A stretch of 64,000 bases of DNA from the IMG/VR virus record IMGVR_UViG_3300031994_000011, positions 64,001 to 128,000 of that record; one strand, written 5' to 3'. The stretch comes from a virus. Taxonomy: Duplodnaviria; Caudoviricetes. The translations under genes were made by a program, and so were the position numbers. The notes below the pieces were generated by a model. That model was given only the letters and a program-made list of their open reading frames with translations. It ran no database searches and was not told the DNA's origin. This document shows positions 1 to 64,000 of the stretch, piece after piece. Position 1 is the stretch's first letter. Every line of letters starts with the position of its first letter.

Positions 1-255
1 AAACATCTTTATGATGCTGCTATTGTTGCTGTTAATGCTGCGGAAGCTATTTATGGTCGCTATAATGGTTCACAAAAATTAAAGGCAGCGTTAGAATCTC
101 TAAGACAAAAAGGTTTTAATGTTAACTCTACTCAAGTTGCTGAAGCTGTCGAAGCCGCGTGGAAACAGCTAGATCAAGCCATGCACATGAGCGGTGAAAA
201 ATATGAAGATGAAGAGGAAGAGGAAGAAGAGCAAGAATAGGCTGTAGAAGAGTAA
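1..255 (+). CDS. Holin (LL-H-like), 3' part; one in-frame TAG at 238
   Basis: Frame 1 reads ..AVNAAEAIYGRYNGSQKLKAALESLRQKG..EAVEAAWKQL, then an acidic tail EEEEEEQE*AVEE ending in TAA 253-255. The pattern AV.AAE..G.G..K...IEAAV is typical of LL-H holins. Confidence 0.65.
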
Positions 256-258
256 TCT

Positions 259-287
259 TTGACTTTTTTCTTATTTTATAGTATAAT
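259..287 (+). promoter_or_regulatory. SigA/sigma70-type promoter
   Basis: TTGACT(259)-N17-TATAAT(282). Confidence 0.75.
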
Positions 288-1155: not shown

Positions 1156-3555
1156 ATGGGTAGAGGTAGTTTTAGAAAAAATTTTTTTGATGAAGATAAT
1201 ATAAGTGTTGGAAAAAGATATGTTTTTTTTCAAAGTTTAGGCACACCTGGTCCTGGATATAAAAAAACTTCACCAATATATTTTATATTAAGAGGATTAG
1301 GAGAAAGCTATGTCTCACAAGCCGCTGCCGCATTGGGCAAAGTTTCTTCTAAATAGTAGATGAATAATTAGCAAATAAAGAAAATAGAAACATATATACA
1401 AGTTATTGGATAGGCAGCAACAAATTAGTTTAACTCTTAGCATCAATTTTTATAGCATATGCTTGAATATAGCTAGAAGGATTAGAGTATTAAAATGTTC
1501 TTTTAGCAACATAGAGATTTATTAGACCCAGATTCAAAAAATTTTAATTATACTGTCTTTATAAAATTACTTAATGAAGAAATATCATAGTTCAAAAATT
1601 TTCAGCAATAGAGACAAAGAGTATTATTAGAAAATGCTCGATTTATAGAAAAAAAAATAGAATAGTTATCAAGATAGGACCCTGAAGCTGCGGAAGAAAT
1701 TGAAAGAGCATTTTATGAATAGGATTATAAAGTTTATGAAAAAAAATTAGATGAATATGATATTTTAAAAAAAATATCTGAGGATGATAAATTTCAAAAG
1801 GATTATATAGGATTATTACGTGATAAAATTATGACTATAATGGGACAATTTAGCCGATCAATAGGAGATAAACAAATAAAAGAAAAACTATAGCAAGGTG
1901 TTAGACAATATGGTCTAAGTGGTTCTGAAGATAATTTAGCTAATGAAGTGTTAACATTATTAATTAATTATCTTCTTAATAATGCTAATTTTTAGCAACT
2001 TCAAAATGAAACCGCTGGCGCAATTAAAAAGAATTTTTTAGATTCATTAGATTCTAAGCCTGGCCATGAAATTTCTCTTGGACCTAATAATTTAAAAAAT
2101 ATACAAAACGCAGTTGGGAGAAAAGCCGTTAAATCAATAGAAGAATTATCAATTTCAATTGGAAAAAACATTGGTGAAGCTTTTATATCTTTATCTCAAT
2201 AGGCTAGAAATACAATTATTGGGCAATATGAAGTACAAAATGAACTTAATAAAATACTTAGAAATGTTACAGATATGACACAAATAACCGCAGCACAAAA
2301 AGGACAAATAACTAAACTTTTTAATCAAAAGATTGCCGAAAGGTTACAAGAAAAAAATATTAAATTAAAAGATCTTGATAGGCAACAAAGACAGGCTTTA
2401 ATCAAACAATTTGAAAAATAGCAGCCTGATTTTTTTTCTCCAACAGAAATTGAAAATAGTCTGCGTAATAGTTTTAAAGTATCAGTACAAGGCGGCTCTT
2501 TAGCTGAAATTGTATAGGCCATGATAATTAACGCTATTGGTGGAGCCTTACAAGGGGGAAATATGACGGCTACTGTACATGGCGCCAAAACAAATGTAAA
2601 GACTGATATAACTTTTAATTATGAACTTCCTTCGTCTTTAAAAATTAAAGATGAAACCTTACGTCATCATGCAAAAAGAATTGTTGACGACGCAAGAGTG
2701 AATTTCGTTTCAAATTATAAAGATAGAATACTTGAATATAATAATGGTAGTACTAGTGTAGCTGAAGCTAGCACAGCTTATTTAGATACTCTTAGGCAAG
2801 CAAGTAAAGAGCTTGAACAAGTTGCTATGAATTTAGGAAAAAGTGGAAAATAGGTCCCAGAAACTGTTGCACAAGCTTTTTCTAGTTTTCTTGGAGGAAA
2901 TATATCTGTAAAATAGTACGTAAAAAGTGGAAATTTAGGATTTCATGGAGGCTCTCTTGGTGGTAATGGCGCACCAGATGAAGTATTAGAAAATATAACT
3001 GAAATGTATACCTTAGGTGGAATTAGTCCAATAGATAAAGATACTTTATATTTTGCTGTAATTAACTGTGGAGCAGATGCTCTTGGAGCAGGATTAAAAT
3101 CTTCCATACAGGATTATCTTTTAGGTGGAGCGGCTTTAATGATGTTTGACGATGGATTTACAGCAACAAATAATTACTTGGAAACAATGAGAACTGCTTT
3201 AGGCTTTTCTGCTGCCCCAGGATTACATTTATTTGCTGTAAATGGTAGATTAATTCCAGCTTCATATGTATATTCTTCTATTTATAATGCTTTATCACAA
3301 GCTTATGCTCATATTATAGAAGAAGTACAAATAACATTTAAGTCACAAGCTTCTTCAATAAATAAAGTTACTATAACAAATAGTATTTCTTAGGAAGGAA
3401 ATAAACCTAGTTACTTAAGTATGCCCGCCGCGCAAGACAGATGGAATAAAGTCGCTGAAGATGCTCAAAATTCTATAAATATTTCTTTTTCGTTTTTAGG
3501 TGGAATATTAGATATTTTTGAAGGTATTGATAAAGCATTTGACAGTTTTGCCTAA
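1156..3555 (+). CDS. Large hypothetical protein (799 aa, 23 in-frame TAG)
   Basis: I read frame 1 codon by codon across the gaps between track fragments: no TAA/TGA from ATG 1156 to TAA 3553. Joins fragments 1156, 2521 and 3004. Confidence 0.85.
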
Positions 3556-5341: not shown

Positions 5342-5369
5342 GTTATTGAAAAATAACGAGGAGCTATAT

Positions 5370-5981
5370 ATGGATTTAGATTTTTTAACTATACCTGAAT
5401 AGGTTAGTAGTTTAGACCCTGTAAAATTTCAATATTTTAATCAACTTTTTAATCATAGAACAATCATATTAAATCAAGAAATTAGCTAGAATCTCGTATA
5501 GACTGTTTATCTTCCTTTACGAGAATTTGAAACTGATTCTTGTACCGAGCCTATAACTTTAATATTAAATTCTATGGGAGGGTCCGTTTCTGACGGATTC
5601 TTTCTTGCTCATTATTTAACTACTTATTCAAAAGAACTAAATATTATAGTTACAGGTTGCGCGGCCAGTATGGGCGCTGTAATACTCTGCGGAGGTGGAA
5701 AAAATCCTAATGTTCATAGAATGTGCTTCCCAAGTACATATGGACTAATTCATGACGGGTATATTACATTATCTACTAATGAATCTAAAACTGCTTCAGA
5801 TATTATGGCATTTAATGATAAAGTTGATCTCCAAATTAGAGATTTTATTTTAAGTAACACAAATATTACAGCTGAGCAATACGATGCTCAAACACGCCAC
5901 CAATGGTTTCTGACAGCAGAAGAAATGAAAGAATTAAATCTGATTGATGAAATTATTGGAAGTGATAATAATGATAATTAA
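5370..5981 (+). CDS. ClpP-family protease (TAG at 5400, 5487, 5499)
   Basis: RTIILNQEIS*NLV*TVYLPL, LNSMGGSV, AASMG (catalytic Ser), LIH, WFLTAEE; GAGGAG RBS before ATG 5370. Confidence 0.88.
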
Positions 5982-7212
5982 TTTTTTAGATACCTCCGCT
6001 ATTTTAAATGGCGCGCTAACTACATATAAAAAAGATGCTTGTATAAGTTCTATTTCTTTAATGTAGTTATAGAATATAAAAACATCTGCTTTTAAAGACA
6101 ATCAAATTAAGTATCAAGCTAGATAGGCAGTTAGAGAAATCATTGATAATAATAATAATTTCTTTTTTCCTTCTTTCTCTCAAAGATAGATAGAAAAAAC
6201 TTTAAAAAAGTATAATTTTTTATCTAATATAAATGATCATTACATAATTTGTTAGGCCGCACTAATGGCAAAAAGTAGCGCATATTAGGTAAATTTTATT
6301 ACTTGCGATGGCGCGCAATACTTACTAGCAAAAAGAATACCTTCTTTAAATTCAATATATTATGATAAGATATTACTTGATAATTATGAAAATAATTAGT
6401 ATTGTGGCTGGGGTAAATATTATCCTAATGAAAAACAATTATAGGCGCTATATGCCGATCCTAAAATGAATATTTTAAATTGTAAAACCAATGAATATGC
6501 TTAGATTTATTATTAGAATAAATTACAAGATGTTCTTAGATGGTCTGGAAAAGAATACGAACCGTTAAAATATAAGGACATTAAGAGTCGTTTTTTAAAT
6601 GAAACAATTAAGCCATTAAATTTGTAGCAAAAAATGGCTTTTGATTTATTACAAAATAATTAGATTCCTGTAAAATTATTGCCAGGCGCAGTAGGAACAG
6701 GTAAAGATTATCTTATGCTTACTCACGCGCTTGATTTGGTTCAAAGAGGAACTATGAATAAAATTATTTTTGTAAGAAACCTTGTTCCTTTTAAAGATGC
6801 ACCATAGATAGGATATCTTGCTGGTAATTTACAAGAAAAAATTGCTTGGGGCATGGGGCCGCTAGCATCAATTCTTGGTGCTGCAGGATTATAGGAAATG
6901 TAGGCTCAGGATATGATTGAAGCAGTAAACCTTGGCTTTATCAGAGGTATGTCATGGGATAAAACAATTATATATGTTTCTTAGGGTCAAAATATAACTG
7001 GCGGCGGCTACAAGTTATTAGTCAGCAGATGCGGAGAAGGAAGTCAATTATGGGTAAATGGCGATATTCTTCAAACAGATGCTAAACGTTTTTAGGAAAA
7101 TAATGGTATTGATAGATTAATTAAATCACTTAGTGGCGATCCACTATTTGGAATGGTTAAATTAATAAAAACAGAACGTTCTAAAACAGCAGAACTAGCT
7201 TCTAAAATTTAA
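5971..7212 (+). CDS. phoH: PIN-PhoH protein (about 17 in-frame TAG; missing from the ORF track)
   Basis: PIN start FLDTSA..LM*L*NIK; KPLNL*QKMAFDLL; Walker A GAVGTGKD; AP*IGYLAG; FIRGMS; IYVS*GQN; SRCGEGS; NGDILQTD; ERSKTA. Confidence 0.92.
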
Positions 7213-7294: not shown

Positions 7295-7600
7295 ATGGAA
7301 GAGAACTTTGAAGCCTTGAAAAAAAGATATTGGATATTTTTTAATTTCGCTGAATTTGATAATAATGTAGAAAATTTTGCTAAAGATATATATGAAGATA
7401 TAAAAAATAATATTACATTAGTCGCAGCATTTGTAACGGTCCTTAATCATAAATGCTGGTATTGGTATGATAAGGGAAATGATGAATTATCATCAAAATA
7501 CTCAGATTTATATTATAAATATAATGATAAAGCTTGGGACTGGTTGGAAGAGCAAGGAACCGACGAAGAAAAAAGTTGGTACTTTAAAACAATGGATTAA
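7295..7600 (+). CDS. Hypothetical protein
   Basis: AGGAGG RBS, open frame. Confidence 0.75.
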   Translation: MEENFEALKKRYWIFFNFAEFDNNVENFAKDIYEDIKNNITLVAAFVTVLNHKCWYWYDKGNDELSSKYSDLYYKYNDKAWDWLEEQGTDEEKSWYFKTMD

Positions 7601-7613
7601 AGGAGAATAAAAT

Positions 7614-8135
7614 ATGAAAATTTATTTAGCAGGTAGTATATTTTATTATGGAGATGTATTACGAAATACAGAATGGGCTAAAAAAATTCGTGAAGCGATT
7701 CCAAATGTAAACTTATATAGTCCAATTGAAAATACTGAAATTAACGGAGCCGAGGGAAAAAAGAAATTTGCCGGCTCACAAGAGATTGCTAATGGAGATA
7801 ATGTTCGTTTAAACAATACTGATATTTTAGTTGCTTGTATTGATGGAGATATTCTTCCGGCAGGAACTTGCGCCGAAATTGGTAAATTTCATGAAAAAAT
7901 TGAACGTGGTGATCATAAATATATTGTTGGTATTTGTACCGATAATCGCCAAATGTACTTAACTTATAGTGAAGAAAAAAATAAAGGCGGTGCTGCTTCT
8001 CTTGGAGAACAACAATATAGTTATCAGAATCTTTACGTTACTGGTTTAATTAAACAAGGCGGCATTTTAGTATCTAATATTGATGATGCTATTTCTTTTA
8101 TAAAAGAAAAAGAAAAGGAGTATAAAGATGAATAA
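7614..8135 (+). CDS. Nucleoside 2-deoxyribosyltransferase-family protein
   Basis: KIYLAG, YSP, D..RL, GTCAEIG. Confidence 0.85.
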   Translation: MKIYLAGSIFYYGDVLRNTEWAKKIREAIPNVNLYSPIENTEINGAEGKKKFAGSQEIANGDNVRLNNTDILVACIDGDILPAGTCAEIGKFHEKIERGDHKYIVGICTDNRQMYLTYSEEKNKGGAASLGEQQYSYQNLYVTGLIKQGGILVSNIDDAISFIKEKEKEYKDE

Positions 8136-8340
8136 AATTATTCATTTCTTCTATTCGCTATATAATCCTTATCCTTGCGGCCGCACTAAAGTTGATAGTT
8201 ATTTATGTTGTAAACGAAAAATGAATAGATGGAATTCTTATCTAACCAAAGATAAAAGAAAATGTTATTGTCGTTTTTGTAATACCATAAAATTTTCAAG
8301 TACTCATCCAATTGATTTTAAACAACCACATAAATGGTAA
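8128..8340 (+). CDS. Small Cys-rich hypothetical protein
   Basis: AGGAG RBS, overlaps the upstream stop. Confidence 0.55.
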   Translation: MNKIIHFFYSLYNPYPCGRTKVDSYLCCKRKMNRWNSYLTKDKRKCYCRFCNTIKFSSTHPIDFKQPHKW

Positions 8341-8354
8341 GGAGGAATATAAAA

Positions 8355-8546
8355 ATGAGTGAAAATTCCTTATGTAATACTTGTGGAAATTTTCATTGTA
8401 TATTTCAATCAGGCATTAACTACGTTAAATGTGACTTTTATATACCTAAAACTTATGAAGAAATATACATAAAATTTATTGATACTGCTGGCAATTTTCA
8501 TTGGATAGGAACTAAAGGTGAACATATAATAAAGCTCTCTTTATAA
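8355..8546 (+). CDS. Small hypothetical protein
   Basis: AGGAGG RBS, CxxC. Confidence 0.6.
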   Translation: MSENSLCNTCGNFHCIFQSGINYVKCDFYIPKTYEEIYIKFIDTAGNFHWIGTKGEHIIKLSL

Positions 8547-8574
8547 ATATTTAAAAGAATTGGTGGAGAAAAAG

Positions 8575-8811
8575 ATGACAAATCCTAGTAAACCAATTGT
8601 TCAATTAAAAGATAATAAAATTATAGCAATATATAATTCTGCTTATGACGCCGCAAAAATAACTAATTTATCATATAATCATATACAAAAAGCTTGCCAT
8701 AATAAACGTGGTGGCGCAGGCGGCTATAAATGGAGATATGCCACTTTAGAAGAAATTGAATAGTATAATAAAGTTTATTATATAAAAGGAGGAAAAAATC
8801 ATGAATTTTAA
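8575..8811 (+). CDS. NUMOD1-like DNA-binding protein (reads through TAG 8761)
   Basis: SKPIVQL..YNSAYDAAK..IQKAC..AGGYKWRY; the next non-TAG stop is TAA 8809. Confidence 0.65.
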
Positions 8812-9163
8812 TCAAATTTCAACTGGCGGACCAGAAGATATGCCAAAATCAACAACTACTTGGACAATAAATAATGATTATTTATTTACGCCTCAAGGAT
8901 GGATTTGTCCTAAATGTGGAAGAGTATATTCACCTACGACAGAAATGTGTTTTTACTGCGGCAATGAAACAAATCAAATTACTGTAAGCGATAAAACTTT
9001 TCCAGATGATTGGTTTATTTATCATGTTACAGACCCTCTAAAAGAACCAGAAGTTCATTTAGATAAAGATTGGAAGAATAAAGAATTTTATGTTGATTAT
9101 GAGTCTCTACCATATTATAATGATGATAATTTTTATAAATTTTATTTAAATCATAATATATAA
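8801..9163 (+). CDS. Hypothetical protein with zinc ribbon
   Basis: GWICPKCGRVYSP..CFYC. Confidence 0.7.
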   Translation: MNFNQISTGGPEDMPKSTTTWTINNDYLFTPQGWICPKCGRVYSPTTEMCFYCGNETNQITVSDKTFPDDWFIYHVTDPLKEPEVHLDKDWKNKEFYVDYESLPYYNDDNFYKFYLNHNI

Positions 9164-9174
9164 AGGAGCATAAA

Positions 9175-9363
9175 ATGAGAAATCCCGGACGTATTAAAAT
9201 TATTTGTGAACAGCTTGCTTCTATATGGCAGGAAATCCCTGATTGGCGACTTGCTCAACTTATGAGTAATATATTTGCTACAAAAGATTGCTTCTATATG
9301 GAAGATAAAGAGTTCATTGAGTATATACAAAAATATATAAAAGAGGTAAAATATGGAGAATAA
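9175..9363 (+). CDS. Conserved small phage protein
   Basis: MRNPGRI..W..PDWRLAQL. Confidence 0.7.
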   Translation: MRNPGRIKIICEQLASIWQEIPDWRLAQLMSNIFATKDCFYMEDKEFIEYIQKYIKEVKYGE

Positions 9364-10633
9364 TTTAATTTATGGTATTAAAGATAAACCAAAAACAGTA
9401 AAATAGTGGATTCTATATCCACTACAACAAGTCTTTTCTGTATTAACAGCAACATTATTGATTTCAACAGTATGCGGCGCGCCGCTAAGTAGTGGAGTTT
9501 TTGCTGCTGGTATTGGAACATTAGTATATCTTATTTTTACAGGCTTTAATAGCCCAATGTTTGTTTCAAATGCGGGCGCTACTTGCTCAGCAGTTATTGC
9601 CTCGCTAGCCCTAAGTGGCGGAAACACTGTAGCAGTTATAGTTGGTGGAAGTGTAACTGCGCTACTTTATTGTATAATTGCGCTAGGAATAAAGCTAAAA
9701 GGAACTTCTTGGTTGAATAAAATATTTTCAACTTATACTATTGGCGCAATTATTATGGTAATTGGCATTAACTTATCTAAATTTGCAGTATCATATGTTC
9801 AAGTAAATAATGAATATAGCTTAGTTGGCATGTTAGTCGCTATCTTTGTTATGTTTGTAACAGCTATTACAGCACGATATGGAAAAGGTTTTATTAAAAC
9901 AATTCCTTTCCTTATTGGACTTTTAGGTGGATATGTACTATGTCTTGTTCTAGAACTGTTTAACATTCACCTACTAAACTTTTCAGCTTTTGATAATTTA
10001 ACTCTATTCTCAGTTCCACATTTTGCCTTCTATGACGCCAATTTTTCTAACTTTAATTGGATGTTAGTTCCTCAAATCATTGTTATTTGGGTAGCAACTT
10101 CTATTCCAATGCTATTAGAGCATCTTGGCGATCATAAAAGTCTAAGTAGCGTTATTGGAACAGACCTCACTCAAAATCCTGGTATTCATAGAACATTAGT
10201 TTCTGATGGCCTCGCGTCTCTTATTGGATGTATTTTTGGAAAAACTCCCAATACTAGCTATGGAGAAAGTATTAGCTGTACAGCTGTAAGTAGAGTCGGC
10301 AGTAGTTATGTTATTGTTACCGCAGCTGGCATTATGATTTTAGCCTCATTCTTTACTCCTCTTATGGCCTTCTTTGAAAGTATTAGTTCTGTAATCTTTG
10401 GCGGAATTAGTTTTATCGCCTATGGTATGATTGCTTTCTCTGGTCTTAACATGCTTATTAACAGTGGAATAAATTATAAAGATACTTCAAAAGTAATGGT
10501 TGTATGCGCTATTCTCACTACTGGTATAAGCGGCGTTGAGCTACAGCTTGGTCCAATTGTATTCAGTGGAGTTAGTCTAGCAATGCTAGTTGGTTTAATT
10601 ATGGATTTAGTTTTAAATTATAAAAAGAATTGA
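9353..10633 (+). CDS. NCS2-family uracil/xanthine permease (TAG at 9404)
   Basis: Start MENNLIYGIKDKP..LQQ, many TM segments, EHLGD, signature PNTSYGES. Confidence 0.88.
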
Positions 10634-10641
10634 GGTATAAA

Positions 10642-11352
10642 ATGACATATCAAGGTTCAAAGGCTAAATATTCAAAATATATTTGTCCAATATTACAAAA
10701 TTATATTGATAAAAATAATATTGAAACTTTTGTAGATTGCTTTGTTGGCGGGGCAAATATAATCACTGATATTAAATGTAAAAACAGAATTGGTATAGAC
10801 AATAATCAATATTTAATTGCTTTATGGAAATACTTACAAAATAATCCAGATTATGAGTTCCCAGTATATCCATCAAGATAGGATTGGGATAGATGTAAAA
10901 ATAAAATAGAAGAAAAAGATTGGTATATTGGATTAGTATCAATTTTTTGTAGCAATATGGCTGGTGGATTTCCAGCAGGTTATGATAAAATGGGACTTAG
11001 ATATAATGGTAGAATTAAAAATTGTAAAAAAGATTTACCATTTTTAAAAGGTGTTAATTTTATCTGCGATGACTATCATAGTATATCAAACTATACAAAC
11101 TGTTTAATTTATTGTGACCCGCCATATAGCAATACGCATAGATATAATTATCAAAAATTTGATAGTAATGAATTTTGGAATTTTATAAGAGAACAATCTA
11201 GCAAAAATTATATTTTTGTAAGTGAACAAAACGCTCCTGAAGATTTTATTTCTATATGGAGTAAAGATATTGAACACAATATTCGTGGAGCAAAAAGAAT
11301 TGCAACTGAACGTTTATTTGTATTTAATAATGGTCTTATAAAAAATTATTAA
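10642..11352 (+). CDS. D12-class DNA adenine methyltransferase (TAG at 10879)
   Basis: YQGSK, DCFVGGAN (SAM-binding) and YCDPPY are in one frame, joined across the TAG. Confidence 0.88.
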
Positions 11353-11412
11353 GAAATATGCCTATCGCAAGATAGGATTATTTCTTTTTATTAAAGGAGT
11401 GTCTAATAAGTC

Positions 11413-11773: not shown

Positions 11774-11787
11774 GGAGGAACCTAAGT

Positions 11788-12402: not shown

Positions 12403-12432
12403 TATTATAGAAAAAGAAAGGAGATTAAAAAA

Positions 12433-53272: not shown

Positions 53273-53297
53273 TTTGCTATTTCCTCCTTTACCTCCA

Positions 53298-56200
53298 TTA
53301 AACTTGACGATATCCACTACGGAATCCTTGTCTAACCAATACGTTCTAAATTTCTCTTGCTACATTTTTAGCATCGTTAGATTGAATATTAAAGTTAATT
53401 GTAGTATCTTGCACCATGTTTCTTTGATTATTATTAACAACATCATTTTCAATAGTACCTTTAATATTATCAGTTAAATTACTAATATCATTCAATGTCT
53501 AAGTCAACGTATCCGCACCTCTAAGAGATCTCTTAAATGACTACTTCATATTTTCAGGTATGATTGCTGCTTTATCCTCTAATGAAGTATCTACAGTAGG
53601 AGTTTGAGTGGTTCCAGCCCTAGTTCCCTAAGTTCTACTTCCTCTAAGAACAGTAGTCCTACCACTACCACCACTACCACCGCCACCAGTAATAGGCTGT
53701 GTAGACTCTTGAGACTATTTTTTCTATTTTTTAGGCATAAGATCTTTGATAGTTTGCTATTGAGCTTTTGCATCATCGCCAGTTCCCTTAACATATTCAT
53801 CAAAGCGATCTTTAACAGTTGGGTCTTGTTTATCCCAATTTTCTCCGAAAATAGACTACATTGCAGCATCTGTTGTGCGCCATCCAATATCTGCGCTACC
53901 TTCAATAGCTTCTTTAATAGTATCATTCATTTTGCTCCAGAAAGGCTATAAATCTTTTCTATAACTTACCCATTGCTATGCTTCTTTTTGTATCTAAAGT
54001 TTTTGTTCTTCAAGTTGTAATGCAGAATAACTTTGATAATCTTTTGTGTTTGTTAATAAGAAACTTACAATGTCCTATGCATCTTGACTCATAATACTAG
54101 TAACTTCTTCCCATAATAAACCATGCTCTTTTTGATACTATAAAGTTTCATTCATTACATCTAATTGAGCATCTAATCTCTAAAGCTGTGCATCAGAAGC
54201 TTGTTGCATAGCATCAATGGCCTATTGTTGCATATTAAAATAAGAATCACGCTATTTTTCATCTAATTGCTGCTGTAAAGAAGAAATCTCAGAAGCTGAA
54301 CCACCAGTACGCTGTAATATTAAAATTTGTCTACGAAGTTTATCTATCTATTTGTTTTCTTTTTGATCCTAATACATTTGTTGTTCACGGTCAAGCTGAT
54401 CCTGCAGTCCCTTTAAATATTTCTAAGAACTCTTTTCAATGGCATCTCTCTAATCTTGTAACTTATCAATAATTTCTTTCTATCTATCTTCTATTGCCTT
54501 TACTACTGCATCTTCAACTTTGCGCTGATTATCTACTATCTATTCTAATATTCCATTTATATCAGATTCTAAAGATAAGATATTCTCAGTAGACTAACGA
54601 TAGCTATCATATAAACTATCTAATGTTTCTTTCCATCCATCTACACTATCCCAGAAATTCTGCATCATCTACATATATAATTCATTATCAGATTTATCAC
54701 CTTTATTTTTAAAATCAATAACTGTACCATCATCATTATATTTAAGAACTTCTGTATCAAATCCTATAGATTTCAAATATTGTATTTGTTTATCCGCGCT
54801 TTCTGCCCAACCAGTAATTTTACCATTAACATCTCTAGTAGTTAATTTTTCAAGTACATCTAAGCCTTTTCCTAAACCAGAAGTATATTGTTGTAAGCCA
54901 TTTTCATCATAAGTAAATATATTACTATAAGTAGAAGCAGCAAGCTAAGCACGTTTTCTATCATACCAACTCTTTTGTAGATAAATCAATTCTTTTGTGG
55001 CAGTAATTTGTTCCATTAAATTTTCTAACTACTTTCTACGACTATTGTAAATGGCTTGTCCATTGGCAATTCTATCTGATTCCAGCTTATCTCTTAATGT
55101 TTGTTGATGTGTAATATCTTGTTCTAATTTATCAATTTGTCTTGTTAAATTGTACCAACGTTCGATTTCAGCAGTAGTGGTTTTAACTTCTTTATCTTTA
55201 TTTCCACCACCACCGCCTCCGCCGCCACCGCCACCAGCGGCCTATTTACCGGCAAGAGAACCAAGATCTTGAGCAGAAGCATTAAGTATTGTCTACCACA
55301 TTGCTCTTATTTGCTTCAATGCTGCTAATGCCGCAGAAGCGCTAGCAAAAGCAGGGCCAACAGTTCCAGTAGCAAGAGATACAGCTACGCGCTAATTAGT
55401 TACAGGTTTACCATGTCCACCTTTTCTACCACTAAGTAATCTACGAGTCTGTAAATGATTAAATACAATAGCATCTGGCGGAAGGTCTACCATTTCAGCT
55501 CCATTTTGACCTACGACATTATATTTACCATTAGCAACAACTAATTCAGGTCCAAGCTAGCCCATAAGAGTCTTTTGATTACCACCAGCTAAAGCAACGT
55601 TACCTTTCGCGGCAATAGTTATCTATTTATCTTTTGCAGGACTTTGACCTTTTACAGTAGCAGGAGAATTTTCACCGCCACCGGCCATTTTAACCTATAT
55701 AGTAGCAACTATTTGAATTAATTTTTTATATGGAATTGAATTTATTGCACTAATTAAACTATAAATTTTCCCAGATCCACTAGATGGAATACTATTCATA
55801 GCAGAAGCAAGCGTTCCTATTGACCCAGTCGCATTACTAACTCCTTGAGCTACTGCTTGTGCCATTGCTGCAGCACTTTGACTTGCATTATTCGCAGCAT
55901 CAACAACTTGTTGAGCACCACTAATAGCTGACTAAAAATCAAAACCAGTTTGGGTTTGGCCATTCGTCACTTGCCCCATACTTGAATTTTTAAAAGCAGC
56001 AGCAATATTATTTATAATATCTGCAGGAGAAGAGGTATCGGAAACAACAGCACTGTCTTTTTTATTGCCAGCCTTATAAATATCTTTCTAAGAAATTTTA
56101 TTATTTAAACTATCTATTGCCTATGCTATTTCATTACCTGTATCTGCTATTTTCTTTGCTGTAGTCTGATCACCATTTCCAGTAGAAGGTGGCTATCTTA

Positions 56201-59200
56201 ATTGTGAACCGCCCATTTCACTATCTTTTTTTCCTTTTACGACAAAACTAGCTTTACTTTCTGTCTCTTTATCTTTAACTTGCTAATTTAAATTAGCAAC
56301 TATAGTATTAACTCCTTCTGACATCTATGCTAATGGAGCATTACTCTTTTCTATTTGTTGTGTATCCTTAGGCGAATTTACTGGCTCATTATTATTAGTA
56401 GAAGTATCAGAAGTTACATTAGAAGGATTTTCATTATCACTTTGTTGATATAAATGTGTGATCATTTCTTCTACTGAATGATATATCTAGGTATTAGCTT
56501 GTCCATTCATCCCAAGAACTTGTAAAAAGCTTTGTAACTCAGCAATACTTTTATCTCGTGTAACAGTAGAACCGGTAAAAGACCCATCAGCATTTTGTTT
56601 AAAGCCCCATACAGGAACTTCACCTTCAGTAATAAAATCATTTCTATCATTTTTTTGTATAATAATACTACCATCTGATAAATATGCACTTGTATAAAAA
56701 ACCCCTTCTTTAGCCTTATCAGGGAGAACTTTTATATCTGTGGGATTATCGCCTTGTAAAATATCTGACATATTACCTTGTTTATATTCATAATCATAGG
56801 TAGGTGATTTAACCTAAGGCTACTACTTATTATCACTGTCATTTTTAGTAGGCGGCCCATCTTTTTTATTTGCAAAATATCTTGCATCTGCTGCCCTACG
56901 TGCTGCTCGTAACGCAGCCTATCTTTCAAGTAAACTTTTATTATACTCACTTTGAAATAAGGCTTCCTATCTATCATATCCATTATTACTACCAACTACT
57001 ACACCATTATTAGGTAGAGTTGGATTATCTTCAGAGCCACCGCCATTTTCATCTGATCCATTGCCATTTTCATTTGATTTACCAAAAGCTTGTATGGCTT
57101 CTTCTGCGGCAGCACCTAAATTTAAAATTGCAGCAGCTGTTTCATTAGAAGCCTACGCTAATGTTTTTTCTTGATCACTTACTTGTTTCGCGGCTTCAGT
57201 GATTCCCTAACCAGCATTTTTTGCTCCATCAGCTACGTTATTAAGACCACTATTAGCATCATCCGCGGCATCACCAGTTCCTGCAACTGCATTTTCGGCA
57301 CCAGCAGCTGCTTCTGCCATTGCCTTCTATGCTGCTTCTTTTTCTTTTTGCGCCTCTTCTGCATTTTTACCATCTAATAAAGCCTAAATATAAGCCATAG
57401 CTCCTTCTACTTTAATATTAAACTAAGAAAGCTAAGCATCTGAATAGATCTCTTTAGCCTAATTAATTTGTGTTTTCCATTCTTTTAATGCTATTAATTG
57501 AGATTCAAGTTGCCAATTTTCTGCTTTAATCGCAGCTTGATATGTCTGATCAATAAGAGGATTTATAAGCTTTAAATCATATGGTTGAGGAATTTTCTTT
57601 GGTGGCTATGATGGACTTGATGGTGATGACGGTGAATCATCAACTGTTTTATCGGTAAAGATGTTCGCTCTTGGAACTCCAGTTGGGTTTCTTGGATCAT
57701 AAAATTCACCGGGTAATTCAGAATCTTCACCAAACTTAGGACCTGTAGAAGAATTACCTCCACTATTTTTATCATCATTTTTAAATGCCCATTCTCCAGC
57801 TTCATCTAATTTAGTGTGTATATTAATTGTAAGTTCAGAACTTCCTTTAGCAAGACTCTATATTAACTTTGCATATTTTGCATCTGATTCATCTTTTACA
57901 TGTAATTTTAAATTCCATTCTTTTGTCTCTACACCAGTAAGTCCCTATTTTGCTTTTTCAAACTATTGTTGCGTCATTGGGCTTTTACCATCTTCAACAA
58001 ATTTAAAACCATATTTAACCTAAAAATCTAAATGTTCTTGAGTGGTTTCTCCCCATTGTTTTTCTGCTTCTTCATAAGTTAAATCTTTAATATCTTTTAT
58101 TTGTTTTGATGTCAATGATGCAGCAGAAGTTTTATCTAGTGTATATATAGTCTTAATCCCTGTCTTTATAAGCCATATTTGATAATCATGTTCATTAAAT
58201 TCTGGTACTTTTCCTTCTCCATATTGCTCTAACATTGCTTTATCATATAATTGTCTCCAAGTATCATTTATATCGGAACTATAATTTTTTCCATCTGCGC
58301 TATATTGTACACCATTTTTAGGGTCTACACGCATATTATATTGAATACCAGTTTTCGTTGTTAAAGTTATAGTAGTAGCTTGTGTTTTTATATCATAATG
58401 ATAACCATATTTTTCTAAATCTTTAATAAAGGGATATTGCTATACTATCATCTGAGCATTTATAGCCGCCTGCACTTCATCTTTATTACTATAAGAAAAA
58501 GTCTTCCCACCAATAGTAACTTTACCATCTTTACCAAATAAAACTGTTGTACCTTCATGAATAACAAGAGTCCTTCCATCACCAAGATTAATATCAGCAG
58601 TTAATTTACTTTCTTTAGCAATTTGTTTAATTGTCCTTATTAAATTCTCTGTACTATAATCACCAGATATTGCCATCTGATATAAACTATTAACAAAAGC
58701 AGTATATGTTTCAGGAGATAAATTACCTTTTTCAAAAACTTCTTCATAAGCACTTTGAAGTTTATCAGCATCTCCACCCGCTGCTTCTATCATCTTATAT
58801 AATGAAACACCCTAAATTGATAAAGCCTTTAAACTTTTTTCCAAATCTTTATTTGTTTTTGCCATTGCTATAATTTCTTGCGCAGCATCTTTATATGGCT
58901 GTTGAAATTGATATTTACCATCAAGTTTAATAGGATTACCGTTATCATCAGTCATAAAAATCTCTGGCAATTCAATTATAACATCATCTGTAGTAACACT
59001 TCCTAATTTTTCCATAGCAACAACAGATTCCAATAGAAGTATCATACCATCAATCATTTCTATTTGAGAAGTCGCCATTGCTTTAAGTGCTTCATGGAAA
59101 TTGGTACTCATATCTGCGGCTCCACCCTACATTTGAAGACCAATTTTACCCATATTAACCATAGCGCCCTAACCATCAATATTTATTAAATTGCTAAAAG

Positions 59201-62200
59201 CCTAATTTATTAGTCGCGCGGCACCATCAGTATCCTTAGCAATCTAATATCCATAAAACATTAATGGCTAACCAGTAATAGTAGCTAAATTTTGGAACTA
59301 ATTAACTAAATTATAAAAGTCATCAACTGCCATTAAATGATAGCCAGTAGCATTTACTAAATCTTCTGGTTTAGTCGAAGTAATTTTTTTACCAGTAGCA
59401 TTATCAAAATATGTAAGCGTCATAGCCTAGTTCATTACTTTATAAGCTTTTCCAATAGAATTTATATAATTTAAAGGCCCTTGTAAATATTCAGGCAATT
59501 TTCTATTCATAAAATCATATTGTTCGGCCTATTGCATTTGAGCCTAAGCAATCTCTTTATAAATACTAAGTCTTTCTCTTAATGCTTGATTATCAGGACC
59601 ATTACTTAATTGCTATTGTAGCGCAGCTATATTAGCCATAGTCTTAGAAATATTCTAGCAGTCCTATCCAGCACCCTATAATGAATCTTTTAATGCTTCA
59701 AATGTTATTTCTGCGGCAACAGTGTCAACATCTTTTAATGCGGTATATAAAGCAATTGCTGCCTAAGTATTTAATTTAATACCATCGAGCGTCATAGAAA
59801 ATGCTGCCTAATTTAGCTATATACCAAGAACATTTTTAGCGAAATCTTGTAATTTTAATTTACCAACATTATCTAAACTACCTTTCAATCCATTAGCTAT
59901 AATATCTGCAAAATTTTTAAATAACTAACTAATTGCATCAGCTAATTCTGCAAGATCTTCTGAAAGCATTAAACTTCCCTATTCAGCAGCATTATAAATT
60001 GTTTGCATTATACCAACAATATTAGCGCCTTCTACTGTTTTTAATATACCATTCTATACATAACCACCATATTGTTTTAATTGATCATTTAATTGTTTTA
60101 TTGAACCTGGTATACTTTGAAGTCCTTTTAATTCTTGTGTATATTGATTCATCCATTTTTGATATTCAACAGAGTCTACTTTATCTTTATTCTCCTCTAA
60201 TGCAGCTATCATTTTAATAAGTTTTTGCTATCTCTAAGTAGTATAATCACTTTCTTTTCTTCCTAGTTCGCTCCATAAATCCGTAACATCAAGCCATTCT
60301 CCGCCAGTTAAGCCACTTAATCCTTCAACTTCCTATCCAATATTTCTCGTTATTTTATTATTTAAATCAACCATGGCTTGATTATATGTTTTCAATGCAT
60401 CAATATATTGTGGACTTCCTGCCTTCCAACCCATCATATTCGCAAAGGCGTTAAAATCAGTTATTCTTAATTTATCTCCGCCTAATAATTCTATAATATT
60501 GGATGCATCTAAAGCATCAACTAATTCCTCAGAAAGCATTATTCCTTGTTTTGTAAGTATCTAAGCAAAAGTATCAAAAGTCATATTAGAAGCATCGCCT
60601 AAAGCATCAATAACAACTTGCTATTTATCTCTTACACTTAAAGTTTTTGCAGCAACACTATTTATTTCTTCTAAAGTCGCATGACCGCTTGTAGTAATTT
60701 TATCTAATGCATAAGCATAAGCTTCATATAAATTATTTATTGATGTAACTACATATTGCCCTTCAGCAATAAGACTAACCGCGCCCGCGCCAGAAACACT
60801 TATTATTTCTGCAGTCGTAGCGTCAATGATACTTCCTGGTGCTGAACCTAATTGCTATAAAGCATTTATATATCTGTCAACCGAACTACGATATAAAGTA
60901 GTTATATTTTCAGCAGTTAAATCAACGCCACCATAATCAGCAATCATTTGCATCATTGCTATTGCATCTGCACCGCCAGATGTAATAATATCAAAAAATT
61001 CACTAAAAGAATCAAATTCGTTAGGAAGTTTTCCTCCTAAAGATTCAACATTTTTCTAAAAATCTTCATATGCTTTTTTTAGAGTTTTATATTGCTAAGA
61101 ACTCCTATCTATAATAGCAGTGCCATCTCCTTTTAATACATAAGGAATATTATCTGCCCATGCCATTACAGCATCTATAAAAGTAGATGAAATTTCTTTA
61201 TATCTTTCTTCAAGTATTTTTTTAATTTGAGCGGTAGAGCGTTGTCCAGAAGTTAATAAATTCATCAAGCCCTATGTTCCACGATATGTTCCATCATCAT
61301 TCTTCTATAAAAGTTCAATAACTTGATCCATTGTTTTTCCATAATGAAGCGCAATTGAAGCAATAGCTTGCTCGTCTAAAGCATTCATATTTGGAATTAA
61401 ATCAGTCATAAAACTATCATAAGAATTTGTTCTCTGATTAGCTAAATAATTAGCATAATAATCCATATATTCTTTACTGTCTTTAGCAAGATTAGAACCA
61501 AAATTGCTCATAAATTCATTCCAATCAGTAATAATATATGAATCTACTCCAGTTCTCTTTAAAAATTTACTTCCTTCCTAAGTTAAATTACCAGCTTCTG
61601 TTAAATAATCACTTAATTGTTTATTTTGAGCAGTAACAAAAGTAGAAATAGCATCTAAATTTAAAGAATCTGCATAACTTAAAAATTCTAATGAACTACT
61701 ATCTTGTAGATTATTATTTTTTATTAAATTAGCATAACTATCATTTAATGTACTTAATCCAATAGTTCCATTATTAAATGCTTCTTCTACTGTATAATAT
61801 ATATAACTTGCTGCCTGTATAAACTCTTCAGCATCATCAATAACAATTTGCCCATTAGTATTTAATTCATTCGCCCAATCTTGATTAAGAGTGGCTAATA
61901 TATTAGCAGTATCACCAGCAATAGTCATTTTACCAGAAAAAGAAGATAAATCACTAACTGCATTTGTCATAATAGAATTAAGCTGTTGATTAATTGCACT
62001 ATTTATTATACGGTAAGTGTTATCATCTATTTTTTCATCTTCATGTTGTTTACTATAAAAAGATTGTAATGTTGTTAATACACCAATAATATTATTACCA
62101 GCAACTGTTAAAACACCATTTTGTATTGTTGCCATAGACCCCATTAATTGAGCATTTAAACTATTTAAGTCTTCATTACTTAATTTAGAAGTTAAATAAC

Positions 62201-64000
62201 TAAGATTAAATTGTTTTCCCACAGAAAAATCTTTTAAAGACTCAATTTCACTTTGAATATTAGATTGAACATTTTCACGAAATTCAATCATAGAGCTTCT
62301 ATAGGAACTAATTTCATTTAAATACGCATCTGAAGTTTTATCCCAACCAAAAGAATCAGCTAATACATTCTAATCTAAGAAACGAATCTAACCATTTCCA
62401 GTTATCTAAGCATAGCCACCAGCAATCCATTGTTCGACAGTACTAACAAACTATTCTGCATGCCCATAAGTCTCAAATAAACCAGATAAATCTGTTAAAG
62501 ACATAGAACTCATTTTTCCAACATATGCCTAACCAATTTTTCCAACATCTCTAACATACGCAGACTGTAAATATTCTACACCAGTATTTAAAATATCTTC
62601 TGGAGCAGCGATACCTTTTACAAGACTATCATGATAAGCTTTAAGTGCTGCAGTAGTATCTCCAACTTTTAAAAGAATATTATTATTATCAACTATATAA
62701 CCAAGATCGCTATGCGCTTTTAAAAATGCTGCTGCATCAGCGTCAAGAAGCTGACCCTAAAAACCACGAATTGCCTAAAGCATTCCTTCTGTTGAAGCAT
62801 ATAAATATTTTTTTCTTTGCTAACTTGTTAAAGTAATTCCTTGACGTTTAGCCCATTTCTATGCTAAATTTAATTTTTCAATTCCATTTTCACCTTGAAG
62901 TATTTTTAACTATTCTTCTACAGTACTATTTATCTACTAAGACGACATTGTAGTAACCTTACGATAATACTACGTCATTGCCTACTTTAAAACTTTAACA
63001 TCTTTTTGAGTTCTATCAGAATCCATAAATCCTTCTATATCTACTTTTTGAGCTAAAGTTTGTTTTGTTAAATTATCAAAAATAATTGCAGTCTAACTCG
63101 TCCAAAGTCCGGCTTCTCTTAATTGATTCTATTGAGCTTCTAAATAATTTAAATATGCTTCTTGTTTTAATTGAAAACTATTGGTTAAACTGTCCCATTC
63201 AAACAAATCGCCAAAATTACTTGCTTCTTCTTTACCACTAAGTTTCATTAATTTATTATATTTCAACATAAAATCTGACATTTCAGAAGTTTCCATTGTA
63301 CCCTAGGTTAATAATGAGGTTGCAGAGCTTACATCAGATAAAAGCTAATCAACTTGTGAAAAAATACTTTCTTGGGCTTCTTTTGTAATACTTATACCAT
63401 ATTTTTCTTTTAATGCTTTTATTTTTTCTAAAGTAATTGAAAAATTTCCATTACCTTCATCAGTAAAATACTACGCAACTTCTTCTTCTGAAAGATTAAA
63501 AATCTTCATTATATTGCCAATATCATCGACAGTTAAATTATTTCTATTTTCTATTAATCCCTAAAGAAGAGTTTCTTTTGATTTCTAAAATTTATTTTTT
63601 TGACTGGCGACCCAAGCATCAATATACTAAGAAGTTTGTTTATCTACATCTCGGACCATTGTACTAACAAAATGTTCAAAATTGTTTATTTCATAAGTTC
63701 TATATCCAGTTCTTGTAAAGTATTGTTGTCCTAATTCAGTTAATTCACCAGTTTCAGTATTTATATAATCTTCTACTTTTGCACCAATTGTAGTTAAAAA
63801 TTCATTTATATTATCTATTGTAATATCAGATGTAGAGACTAAATTTAGCGCTGCAATAGGACGATTATTGTTAGCTTTTATTTTTGACACGGCGAAATCA
63901 TTTAATGATTTTAAACTAACAGTTCCCTATTTATAGCCTTCTTGGGCAGATTTATATAAGCCATTAACTGCATCTAAATAATCTTGTGCAGTTCTAAGAG
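53298..64000 (-). CDS. Tape measure protein, start beyond the window (>3500 aa, many TAG)
   Basis: Track fragments at 56487, 58020, 58440, 58812, 60333, 61305, 61578 and 63627 share one frame. Helical, Ala/Gln-rich; AKG..LMG*LGPELVV..G..GAEMVDL motif; ends in TAA 53298. Spot-checked only, not every codon. Confidence 0.82.

What the first reader, a model, noticed from the sequence alone, without database searches (positions are those of the whole stretch)
1..64000. Phage with a TAG = glutamate genetic code (not the known TAG = Gln code 15)
Seen in sequence: well over a hundred in-frame TAGs interrupt otherwise intact genes, and every gene end I resolved is TAA or TGA. At conserved positions TAG replaces Glu. 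PhoH Walker B IYVS*GQN (6982; consensus DEAQN). PhoH N.*Q (6625). PIN LM*L*NIK (6064/6070). RuvC second catalytic acidic residue PDFIGL*NIQ (43037). GIY-YIG metal-binding Glu LSEK*KFYI (40958). Tape-measure G*LGPE (55557-59; consensus GExGPE). ClpP EIS*NLV* (5487/5499). Tail IA*TF, LR*GYW, A*HPNR. Gln would remove catalytic carboxylates in three unrelated enzymes. Established knowledge: described phage stop reassignments are TAG=Gln (table 15) and TGA=Trp/Gly. UAG=Glu is known from some eukaryotic nuclear codes (peritrich ciliates, Blastocrithidia). I know of no phage or bacterial example but cannot search the literature. Inference: a phage-encoded amber tRNA(CUA), one base from tRNA-Glu(CUC). 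A non-discriminating Firmicutes GluRS could charge it, and it would stay Glu if GatCAB does not amidate it.
Basis: partly seen in the sequence, partly recalled or inferred. Interest (0 to 1): 0.98.

Follow-up and report, generated by a model that had tools for sequence, protein, structure and literature searches.

The report
Phage reads TAG stop as glutamate
A 172-kb sheep-gut (probably rumen) phage reads the stop codon TAG as glutamate through its own glutamate-type tRNA, while close relatives read it as glutamine or as stop; I found no earlier report of this code in a phage or bacterium.

Summary
The window lies in a complete 171,958-bp phage genome. It holds 340 in-frame TAGs in 22 ORFs. 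ORF coverage is 52% under table 11 and 87% with TAG as sense.

I aligned the phage's proteins (TAG=X) to 69 related IMG/VR loci and four whole relatives. TAG columns behave like glutamate columns: E is the majority residue in 223 of 394. All 36 TAG columns that are at least 90% conserved are E (chance about 5e-41). Glu beats Gln by about 220-230 nats.

The same pipeline calls TAG=Gln in two relatives and TAG=Glu in one other genome. The family therefore holds three code states: standard, TAG=Gln and TAG=Glu.

A 74-nt tRNA(CUA) lies 13.4 kb upstream of the window. It carries the tRNA-Glu D-arm and variable-loop signature, which marks tRNA-Glu in 123 of 130 prokaryotic matches. The TAG=Gln relatives carry an unrelated suppressor.

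No phage GluRS/GlnRS or release factor was found, so charging by host GluRS is inferred, not shown. No peptide evidence exists. Four other first-stage notes of this scan on the same genome reached the same reading. I found no prior report in the literature searched.

The parts
1156..3555 (+). 799-aa orphan ORF with 23 in-frame TAG
   Evidence: The only homologs are 25-29% identical family copies. The database holds only the phage's own copy (97% identical, as expected if its 23 TAGs are read as another residue). Uninformative on the meaning of TAG.
5346..5981 (+). ClpP-family protease gene, 3 TAG
   Evidence: Pfam PF00574, E 8e-26. The TAGs at 5487 and 5499 are E in 3 of 3 relatives. The first aligns with Asp of S. 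aureus-type ClpP structures.
5944..7212 (+). PIN-PhoH gene, 17 TAG
   Evidence: Pfam PF02562, E 4e-28. E is the majority residue in 10 of the 17 TAG columns. Six columns are at least 92% E in 120 homologs, including the Walker B position 347 (E119 of 120) and PIN positions 41 and 43.
7295..33047 (+). Block of replication and early genes almost free of TAG (a few ORFs carry one TAG)
   Evidence: About 40 ORFs with 0 TAG and five with a single TAG. This contrasts with 3-8% TAG in late genes.
33143..34102 (+). LAGLIDADG-domain ORF, 3 TAG
   Evidence: Pfam PF14528, E 2e-11.
35859..36941 (+). 360-aa ORF, 8 TAG
   Evidence: TAG columns in relatives: E 3.8, D 1.5 of 8.
40052..41023 (+). GIY-YIG-domain ORF, 27 TAG (8.4% of codons)
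   Evidence: Pfam PF01541, E 2.5e-6. TAG columns: E 10.9, D 2.8 of 27. The TAG at 40958 is E in 4 of 4 relatives. Contigs from an RNA library are identical over the whole gene.
42620..43357 (+).
   Evidence: No Pfam or PDB sequence match. TAG columns: E 4.8 of 9. At the 43037 column three relatives have E and one has TAG.
43354..43734 (+). 126-aa ORF, 2 TAG
43772..51409 (-). 2545-aa structural or tail ORF, 96 TAG
   Evidence: 73 aligned TAG columns: E 22.2, K 6.8, D 5.2, Q 5.0.
51434..53452 (-). 672-aa ORF, 27 TAG
   Evidence: TAG columns: E 6.6 of 22, Q 1.4.
53298..64000 (-). 3' part of a 6244-aa ORF (genome 117298-136032) with 195 TAG, about 110 of them in the window
   Evidence: 92 aligned TAG columns: E 21.8, K 9.3, D 7.8, Q 6.8. 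The TAG at 55557 is E in 3 of 4 relatives.

Best explanation
This phage uses a genetic code in which TAG means glutamate, and TAA and TGA remain the stops.

Shown: TAG is rare in the early and replication genes. In late, structural and some nuclease genes it makes up about a third of the inferred Glu codons.

Shown: the decoder is present. It is a phage-encoded 74-nt tRNA with anticodon CUA at genome 50570-50643, 13.4 kb upstream of the window. Its body is that of a bacterial tRNA-Glu. CUA is one base away from the Glu anticodon CUC.

Inferred: the host's GluRS charges this tRNA with Glu through the 'augmented D helix' (U11-A24, U13.G22..A46, no nucleotide 47). Because the first pair is G1.U72 and not U1-A72, the Glu is not amidated to Gln.

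Inferred: early in infection TAG still acts as a stop in a host that uses the standard code. Once the suppressor tRNA accumulates, the TAG-rich late genes become translatable.

Shown: close relatives have reassigned the same codon to Gln with an unrelated suppressor tRNA, or not at all. The code state is evolutionarily labile in this phage family.
For: 1. Density. ORF coverage is 0.516 under table 11 and 0.867 with TAG as sense.

2. Column statistics for G000 (this phage's genome). Proteins with TAG=X were aligned to 69 IMG/VR relatives and 4 whole genomes. The 581 TAG columns have the profile E 36%, D 9.5%, K 7%, Q 6.6%. Real E columns give E 50%, D 9%. The empirical-substitution likelihood puts Glu first and Gln second at -230 nats, or -218 nats against standard-code relatives only.

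3. Majority and conserved columns. E is the majority residue in 223 of 394 TAG columns, against Q in 27. All 36 TAG columns at least 90% conserved in at least 10 relatives are E. They lie in 12 genes, and the chance probability is about 5e-41.

4. Controls. The same pipeline gives Gln for G002 and G004, two whole-genome relatives (Glu at -165 and -160 nats; conserved columns 14 of 15 and 13 of 17 Q). It gives Glu for G001, a third whole-genome relative (Q at -51 nats; 16 of 18 E).

5. Codon pairs. G000 TAG faces G002 GAA 153 and GAG 22 against CAA 16. G002 TAG faces G000 CAA 44 and CAG 17 against GAA 13. G000 and G001 share TAG at 45 sites.

6. Composition. In TAG-rich genes GAA+GAG falls to 5.45%, against 7.41% in TAG-free genes, while TAG is 2.95% and Gln codons are not depleted.

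7. The tRNA. ARAGORN and Rfam (55 bits) both find tRNA(CUA). Homologs in G001 and in further contigs keep the cloverleaf through compensatory changes: 16 of 21 pairs covary, and U11-A24, C12-G23 and U13.G22 are invariant. Its D-arm and variable-loop pattern, searched with the anticodon left free, hits tRNA-Glu(UUC/CUC) in 123 of 130 matches in prokaryotic genomes. These elements are the published GluRS determinants (PMC9976931).

8. Other tRNAs. The TAG=Gln relatives carry a different 87-90-nt tRNA(CUA). ARAGORN finds no tRNA-Glu(UUC) in G000 or G001, while the other three genomes each have one.

9. Sequence confirmed. Independent DNA contigs and RNA-library contigs carry the same TAGs.
Against: No peptide evidence: the amino acid is inferred from evolutionary conservation only.

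GluRS of E. coli reads U34, U35, C36 and A37 strongly (PMC9976931). This tRNA has C34 and A36, so efficient charging by an ordinary GluRS is not guaranteed. Some Gln or other mischarging cannot be excluded.

No phage GluRS/GlnRS or release factor was found. No shared accessory gene with a translation-related domain was found in the two TAG=Glu genomes. How RF1 is outcompeted is unknown.

The host is unidentified. The G1.U72 pair also occurs in other tRNAs of these phages, so it is not specific to the suppressor.

About 40% of TAG columns do not have E as the majority residue. This is the same order as for true E columns at this divergence.
Confidence: 0.9

Rival explanations
1. TAG is read as glutamine, as in all phage TAG recodings described so far (table 15).
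For: It is the only TAG reassignment reported for phages that differ in code from their host (Borges et al. preprint; phAss-1 paper; Lak paper). Public databases already translate these proteins with Q at TAG. Most relatives in this family do use TAG=Gln.
Against: Gln is 218-230 nats worse than Glu. None of the 36 conserved TAG columns is Q. The codon pairs show GAA and GAG, not CAA and CAG. The suppressor tRNA is of Glu type and unrelated to the suppressor of the TAG=Gln relatives. Q would replace the E at the PhoH Walker B position (E in 119 of 120 homologs) and at the PIN positions 41 and 43 (E in 116 and 118 of 120).
Confidence: 0.02
2. TAG is decoded ambiguously. It is mainly Glu, with a substantial share of Gln (mischarging by GlnRS, or partial amidation) or of termination by RF1. 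The proteome is then statistical at TAG sites.
For: The anticodon is a major determinant for both GluRS and GlnRS, and U35 is shared between them (PMC9976931). From my own memory, not checked here, engineered E. coli tRNA-Glu amber suppressors insert Glu together with some Gln. No RF1 countermeasure was found.
Against: TAG sits at invariant, probably catalytic Glu positions in many essential genes. This argues for high fidelity under selection. TAG reaches 8% of codons in one gene, which would be costly if decoding were leaky.
Confidence: 0.07
3. The TAGs are artefacts (consensus or assembly errors, or DNA that is edited or modified before translation), or the genes are pseudogenes.
For: None found.
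Against: Contigs from an RNA library of another sample and study match with 0 differences over 7.4 kb, including the gene with 27 TAGs. The 769 TAGs are confined to one reading frame of conserved genes. The same trait is seen in independent assemblies: G001, L036 and L267. G000 and G001 share 45 TAG sites.
Confidence: 0.005
4. TAG encodes another residue, such as Asp, Lys, pyrrolysine or a non-canonical amino acid.
For: ARAGORN labels any CUA anticodon 'Pyl'. D and K are the next most frequent residues in TAG columns.
Against: Asp is -301 nats and Lys -348 nats relative to Glu. The tRNA has the canonical Glu-type cloverleaf, which differs (from my own knowledge) from the atypical tRNA-Pyl shape. 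D and K occur at the same rate opposite true E columns.
Confidence: 0.005

Closest known systems
TAG=Gln ('code 15') recoded gut phages: crAss-like, Lak, Garnet/Topaz, and phAss-1/Phassvirus
   Same: In-frame TAG is concentrated in late and structural genes, and early genes are compatible with the standard code. The phage encodes a tRNA(CUA) and no dedicated aaRS. The habitat is the gut or rumen. phAss-1 is a distant structural relative (34% MCP identity) with a guessed Clostridia host.
   Different: The amino acid is Glu, not Gln. The suppressor is a tRNA-Glu derivative. Borges et al. state that only TAG->Gln and TGA->Trp were seen in phages whose code differs from the host's. The Lak paper noted some TAG/E alignments but read them as Q/E substitutions.
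TAG=Gln members of this same phage family (e.g. G002 = IMGVR_UViG_3300021400_000113, G004 = IMGVR_UViG_3300021399_000004)
   Same: Genomes of 165-180 kb with the same gene order and 90% MCP identity to G002. They show the same pattern of TAG-rich late genes.
   Different: Their TAG columns are Gln. Their suppressor is an unrelated 87-90-nt tRNA(CUA) with a roughly 20-nt variable region and a weak 1-72 pair. ARAGORN still finds a tRNA-Glu(UUC) in them.
Eukaryotic nuclear codes with UAG=Glu (peritrich ciliates, NCBI table 30; Blastocrithidia, table 31). From my own knowledge; the papers are only listed.
   Same: UAG is decoded as glutamate by a tRNA-Glu-derived suppressor.
   Different: In those codes UAA is reassigned together with UAG, in cellular eukaryotes with altered eRF1. 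Here only TAG is reassigned and TAA is the main stop (124 of 173 ORFs). The system is a virus-borne tRNA acting in a bacterial host.
Bacterial tRNA-Glu (GluRS identity set of E. coli; 'augmented D helix')
   Same: U11-A24, U13.G22, A46, no nucleotide 47, U35 and A37 are all present (PMC9976931). The pattern marks tRNA-Glu in 123 of 130 genome matches.
   Different: The anticodon is CUA (C34, A36) instead of UUC or CUC. The tRNA has G1.U72, G2-C71 and U10-A25.

Membership tests
Stop-codon-recoded phages (phage-driven TAG reassignment) | In-frame TAG in conserved essential genes; coding density restored when TAG is read as sense | tested here: met
   ORF coverage 0.516 versus 0.867. There are 769 in-frame TAGs, 340 of them in the window.
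Stop-codon-recoded phages (phage-driven TAG reassignment) | Phage-encoded suppressor tRNA with anticodon CUA | tested here: met
   Genome 50570-50643. Found by ARAGORN and by Rfam RF00005 at 55.3 bits.
Stop-codon-recoded phages (phage-driven TAG reassignment) | Recoded codon enriched in late, structural or lysis genes and avoided in early genes | tested here: met
   Window 7295-33047 is almost free of TAG, while the structural ORFs on the minus strand carry 3-4% TAG. The early/late labels are inferred from gene content, not from expression data.
NCBI translation table 15 (TAG=Gln) | TAG columns dominated by Gln | tested here: not met
   Q is 6.6% of the TAG-column profile and the majority residue in 27 of 394 columns. 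None of the 36 conserved columns is Q. Gln is -230 nats relative to Glu.
Bacterial tRNA-Glu | U11-A24 pair, U13.G22..A46 triple and absence of nucleotide 47 (major GluRS determinants) | tested here: met
   The D stem is U10-A25, U11-A24, C12-G23, U13.G22. The variable region is UAAC (G000) or GAAC (G001). These elements are invariant in six Glu-like CUA tRNAs. The determinants are listed in PMC9976931.
Bacterial tRNA-Glu | Anticodon-loop determinants U34, U35, C36, A37 | tested here: not met
   The loop is C32 U33 C34 U35 A36 A37 A38, so only U35 and A37 are kept. C34 occurs naturally in tRNA-Glu(CUC), which made up 52 of the 123 tRNA-Glu hits. A36 is the one change forced by reading UAG.
Bacterial tRNA-Glu | The D-arm and variable-loop signature is specific for the Glu isotype among prokaryotic tRNAs | tested here: met
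tRNA-Gln as substrate of GatCAB / GlnRS | U1-A72 (or another weak 1-72 pair) and G73 | tested here: not met
   G1.U72 and A73 in G000, G001 and L267. The role of U1-A72 is described in PMC9976931. How G1.U72 behaves with GatCAB is not known.
Self-sufficient recoding system (phage aaRS or release factor) | Phage-encoded GluRS/GlnRS catalytic domain (PF00749), or RF-1 domain (PF00472) shared by RF1 and RF2 | tested here: not met
   No match in G000, G001, G002, G004 or G005, while the control genomes gave matches.
Glutamate incorporation at TAG (direct) | Peptides or charged tRNA showing Glu | not testable with these tools
   No proteomic or aminoacylation data are available here.

The most novel reading that the evidence does not exclude
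This would be the first natural UAG=Glu genetic code outside eukaryotes. One family of sheep-gut and other animal-gut (probably rumen) phages of about 170 kb has reassigned the same stop codon to two different amino acids. A tRNA-Glu-derived suppressor gives Glu and an unrelated long-variable-arm suppressor gives Gln, both alongside standard-code members. On the capsid tree the code state changes at least 12 times among 66 rows. A second, unrelated lineage with 22% GC (L269) may use the same Glu-type suppressor.
Probability: 0.85. Interest if true: 0.92.

Novelty: new variant of a known kind. Interest (0 to 1): 0.9.

Why it matters
- It breaks the rule that phage TAG recoding always means Gln. 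That rule had been explained by the intrinsic readiness of GlnRS to charge CUA suppressors.
- It shows that a bacterial GluRS system can support a natural amber-to-Glu code. This is a ready-made, probably orthogonal-in-part tRNA scaffold of interest for genetic-code engineering.
- It offers a natural experiment. Sister phages with standard, TAG=Gln and TAG=Glu codes allow direct study of how codes switch and whether code differences act as barriers to recombination between co-infecting phages.
- It has a practical consequence. Gene callers and databases that apply table 15 mistranslate these proteins, placing Q at conserved and probably catalytic Glu positions (seen). That corrupts annotation, structure prediction and metaproteomic searches.

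Tried and rejected
- my first viral-contig scan for Glu-type CUA tRNAs had one N too many and found nothing. The corrected pattern was used.
- a search for relatives through the DUF2828 gene next to the tRNA gave only two loci. I used whole-genome handles instead.
- PDB sequence searches with the RuvC-like ORF and with the helicase found nothing. The 'RuvC second acidic residue' and 'DExD' claims rest only on family conservation.
- ORF 1156-3555 seemed to align TAG with Q (6 of 19 columns). Its only homologs are 25-29% identical, and true E aligns with Q almost as often as with E there. The database holds only the phage's own copy. The gene is uninformative, not contradictory.
- no phage GluRS/GlnRS or RF. 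Genes shared only by the two TAG=Glu genomes show no translation-related domain.
- the suppressor is not visibly derived from the family's own tRNA-Glu(UUC) genes. Its nearest phage tRNA is only the G001 suppressor.
No Clostridia genomes could be searched, so the host and its GluRS/GlnRS/GatCAB set remain unknown.
- a six-frame ORF tally on small contigs gave spurious Leu signals from antisense frames (TAG is the complement of CTA). It was redone with non-overlapping ORFs.
- the likelihood for the L269 RecA favours Glu only weakly (Asp -1.4, Gln -3.1 nats).


Full report
WHAT THE WINDOW IS. The window is bases 64001-128000 of a single-contig, 171,958-bp virus record with direct terminal repeats, rated 100% complete. 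GC is about 31-34%. K-mer search places it in sheep gut metagenomes, with smaller shares in bovine and other gut samples. Its capsid protein is distantly related (23-34% identity) to phAss-1 and to large siphoviruses of Enterococcus, Clostridioides, Bacillus and Staphylococcus. Its lysin combines Phage_lysozyme2, NlpC/P60 and PG_binding_1 domains. A Bacillota (probably Clostridia) host is therefore likely, but it is not shown.

THE OBSERVATION. Under table 11 the structural half of the genome is shattered. With TAG read through, long ORFs appear, all bounded by TAA or TGA. The window has 340 in-frame TAGs in 22 ORFs and the genome has 769. Coverage by ORFs of at least 80 aa rises from 0.516 to 0.867. 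TAG is nearly absent from window 7295-33047, the replication and early genes. It reaches 3-8% of codons in nuclease, PhoH and structural genes.

The TAGs are not an assembly artefact. DNA contigs match window 40001-48000 without a difference. So do contigs from an RNA library of a different sample and study, including the gene with 27 TAGs. That library may also contain DNA, so it does not prove transcription.

WHICH AMINO ACID. I translated all ORFs with TAG=X and aligned them by tblastn to 69 related IMG/VR loci found through the TAG-free capsid gene. Later I added four complete relatives fetched as G001, G002, G004 and G005.
This is the profile of genuine Glu columns.
- Genome-wide there are 581 columns. 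A likelihood built from the substitution frequencies of the same alignments ranks Glu first. Gln follows at -230 nats and Asp at -301. Against standard-code relatives only, Gln is at -218.
- E is the majority residue in 223 of 394 columns, D in 40 and Q in 27.
- Among columns at least 90% conserved in at least 10 relatives, all 36 that face a TAG are E. They are spread over 12 genes. E makes up 7.6% of such columns, so chance gives about 5e-41.
- Within the window alone there are 278 aligned columns: E 30%, D 10%, Q 8%.
- At the codon level, G000 TAG faces GAA 153 and GAG 22 in G002, against CAA 16.
- Composition agrees. In TAG-rich genes GAA+GAG drops by two percentage points, roughly the share taken by TAG, while Gln codons are not depleted.

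CONTROLS AND FAMILY CONTEXT. The identical pipeline returns Gln for G002 and G004. Glu is at -165 and -160 nats, and conserved columns are 14 of 15 and 13 of 17 Q. It returns Glu for G001 (16 of 18 E). Scoring every locus against the standard-code genome G005 gives three states. About 23 loci have no in-frame TAG. About 40 have TAG=Gln. Only three are TAG=Glu: G000, G001 (IMGVR_UViG_3300021399_000108) and L036.

On a capsid tree G000 is sister to seven TAG=Gln phages (SH-aLRT 100). G001 and L036 sit elsewhere in a 14-row clade, and the tree needs 12 state changes. The genomes are mosaic, with AAI of 51-57% among all five. A single-gene tree therefore cannot order the events. G000 and G001 share 45 TAG sites.

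DISTANT-HOMOLOG CHECKS. The PhoH Walker B TAG aligns with the Glu of DEAQN in PDB 3b85. Across 120 full-length PhoH homologs, six of the 17 TAG columns are at least 92% Glu. These include Walker B (119 of 120) and two PIN-domain positions. The closest database homolog (94% identical) has Q at all 17 TAG sites. This fits a code-15 translation rather than real Gln codons, though I did not inspect its DNA. The phage's own entry for ORF 1156-3555 is 97% identical to my TAG=X translation, as expected if its 23 TAGs are read as another residue. The first ClpP TAG aligns with Asp in solved ClpPs.

THE DECODER. ARAGORN finds one tRNA(CUA), 74 nt long, at genome 50570-50643 in the tRNA cluster. Rfam scores it at 55 bits.
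- Its features are G1.U72, A73, a D stem of U10-A25, U11-A24, C12-G23 and U13.G22, a four-base variable region UAAC (A46, no 47), and the anticodon loop CU-CUA-AA.
- U11-A24, U13-G22..A46 and the missing nucleotide 47 are the major body determinants for E. coli GluRS. An 'augmented D helix plus no 47' is what A. ferrooxidans GluRS1 requires. U1-A72 is what amidotransferases and GluRS2 use to pick tRNA-Gln (PMC9976931).
- I searched the suppressor's D-arm and variable-loop pattern, with the anticodon left free, in prokaryotic genomes. Of 130 matches, 123 are tRNA-Glu (71 UUC, 52 CUC).
- G001 carries a homolog (60 of 70 identical outside the anticodon). A third variant occurs in IMGVR_UViG_3300021399_000301 and in two metagenome contigs. 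The three differ by compensatory changes in the anticodon and T stems.
- The TAG=Gln genomes instead have an 87-90-nt tRNA(CUA) with a roughly 20-nt variable region and an A.C or U.G first pair.
- ARAGORN finds no tRNA-Glu(UUC) in G000 or G001. The other three genomes each have one.
- The suppressor lies in different neighbourhoods in G000 and G001.

MECHANISM AND ITS LIMITS. Three things are shown. TAG is under selection as a Glu codon. A Glu-type tRNA(CUA) is encoded and conserved. None of the five genomes encodes a GluRS/GlnRS catalytic domain or a class-I release factor.

Three things are inferred. Host GluRS charges the tRNA through the D-helix determinants despite C34 and A36. C34 is natural in tRNA-Glu(CUC), so only position 36 is new. 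GatCAB or GlnRS do not convert or charge it. The near absence of TAG from early genes means the host itself treats TAG as stop, so the tRNA works as a timing switch, as proposed for TAG=Gln phages.

How RF1 is outcompeted is unknown. Some misincorporation cannot be excluded.

PRIOR KNOWLEDGE. Full-text searches found no report of TAG=Glu in a phage or bacterium. The Borges et al. preprint states that only TAG->Gln and TGA->Trp were observed in phages whose code differs from the host's. The Lak paper saw some TAG/E alignments but kept Gln. phAss-1 was annotated with table 15. UAG=Glu is known to me only from eukaryotic nuclear codes, where UAA changes too.

Four other first-stage notes of this scan on the same genome proposed the same reading, and a fifth proposed the Glu identity of the tRNA. 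They are not independent evidence. Their tRNA claim was re-tested here and holds.

BREADTH. The Glu-type CUA pattern is rare: 2 hits in 2.9 million IMG/VR contigs beyond the withheld own record, and 17 metagenome contigs.
- Small family contigs show E as the top residue at TAG, jointly in one case, with low power.
- One unrelated contig pair (L269 and L274, GC 22%) has the same kind of tRNA. Its RecA and FEN genes carry 6-9% TAG. In RecA, six TAG columns are Glu-dominant across 134 representatives, including the P-loop Glu. None is Gln-dominant, but the likelihood margin is small.
- Three contigs look eukaryotic, with arrays of tRNA-Gln(CUG).

VERDICT. This is a new variant of phage stop-codon recoding: TAG=Glu through a tRNA-Glu-derived suppressor. 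It sits in a family that also contains TAG=Gln and standard-code members. Direct proof by peptides or aminoacylation is still missing.

Noticed in passing
G002:C1:47569-47658 (+) and G004:C1:51768-51854 (-), i.e. within L120 and L139: The TAG=Gln relatives carry an odd 87-90-nt tRNA(CUA). It has a variable region of about 20 nt that does not form a clean arm, and an A.C or U.G first pair. It is unrelated to the Glu-type suppressor. Its nearest phage tRNAs by sequence are Ser, Leu and Tyr types.
   Followed up: partly
P0002 (PhoH homolog, 94% identical) and P0122 (window 1156-3555 product): In the public protein collection, a 94%-identical PhoH homolog has Q at all 17 TAG sites. The phage's own ORF 1156-3555 entry differs from the TAG=X translation by about the share of TAG codons. 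This fits gene calling with table 15, which would mistranslate conserved Glu positions.
   Followed up: partly
L269:216-4790 and L274 (metagenome Ga0265294): An unrelated contig with 22% GC carries a Glu-like tRNA(CUA) next to RecA, a 5'-3' exonuclease and two other ORFs with 1-9% in-frame TAG. The RecA TAG columns are E-dominant at six positions, including the P-loop Glu, and never Q-dominant. This may be a second TAG=Glu lineage.
   Followed up: partly
genome 50647-50756, 50760-50901, 55951-56100, 60815-60932, 62100-62233 (upstream of the window; L003/L004): With introns allowed, ARAGORN finds five more tRNA genes with 27-75-nt inserts in the anticodon loop. One is a tRNA-Gln(UUG) directly downstream of the suppressor.
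   Followed up: partly
window 46409-46675: Summed contig depth spikes about 25-fold (1895 against about 75 in the source-sample DNA run), and many contigs break at 46633-46670. This looks like a short AT-rich repeat shared with other DNA, inside the 2545-aa ORF.
   Followed up: no
genome 117298-136032 (-), window 53298-64000 and beyond: A single 6244-aa ORF with 195 TAGs. It is very large for a phage of 172 kb and may be a fused tape-measure or tail protein. No Pfam scan of it was made.
   Followed up: no
genome 45998-51364 (L003:8998-14364): The suppressor tRNA sits among RNA-repair or tRNA-related genes: a metallophosphoesterase, an RNA ligase, a DUF2828/DUF7788 protein directly upstream and a PTH2 peptidyl-tRNA hydrolase downstream. 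PTH2 has no homolog in the four relatives.
   Followed up: partly
genome 7342-7869(-), 13486-13884(-), 63905-64255(+; reaches window 1-255, holin family), 92649-92942(-) (window 28649-28942): Several small genes have a single TAG at 95-99% of the ORF, shortly before a TAA or TGA. These may be genuine early TAG stops with back-up stops, or short Glu-containing tails.
   Followed up: no
L278, L282, L284 (ERZ1034375 contigs): Tandem arrays of tRNA-Gln(CUG) genes together with a tRNA(CUA) of similar body. They look eukaryotic (ciliate-like). They show that the D-arm pattern is Glu-specific only in prokaryotes.
   Followed up: no
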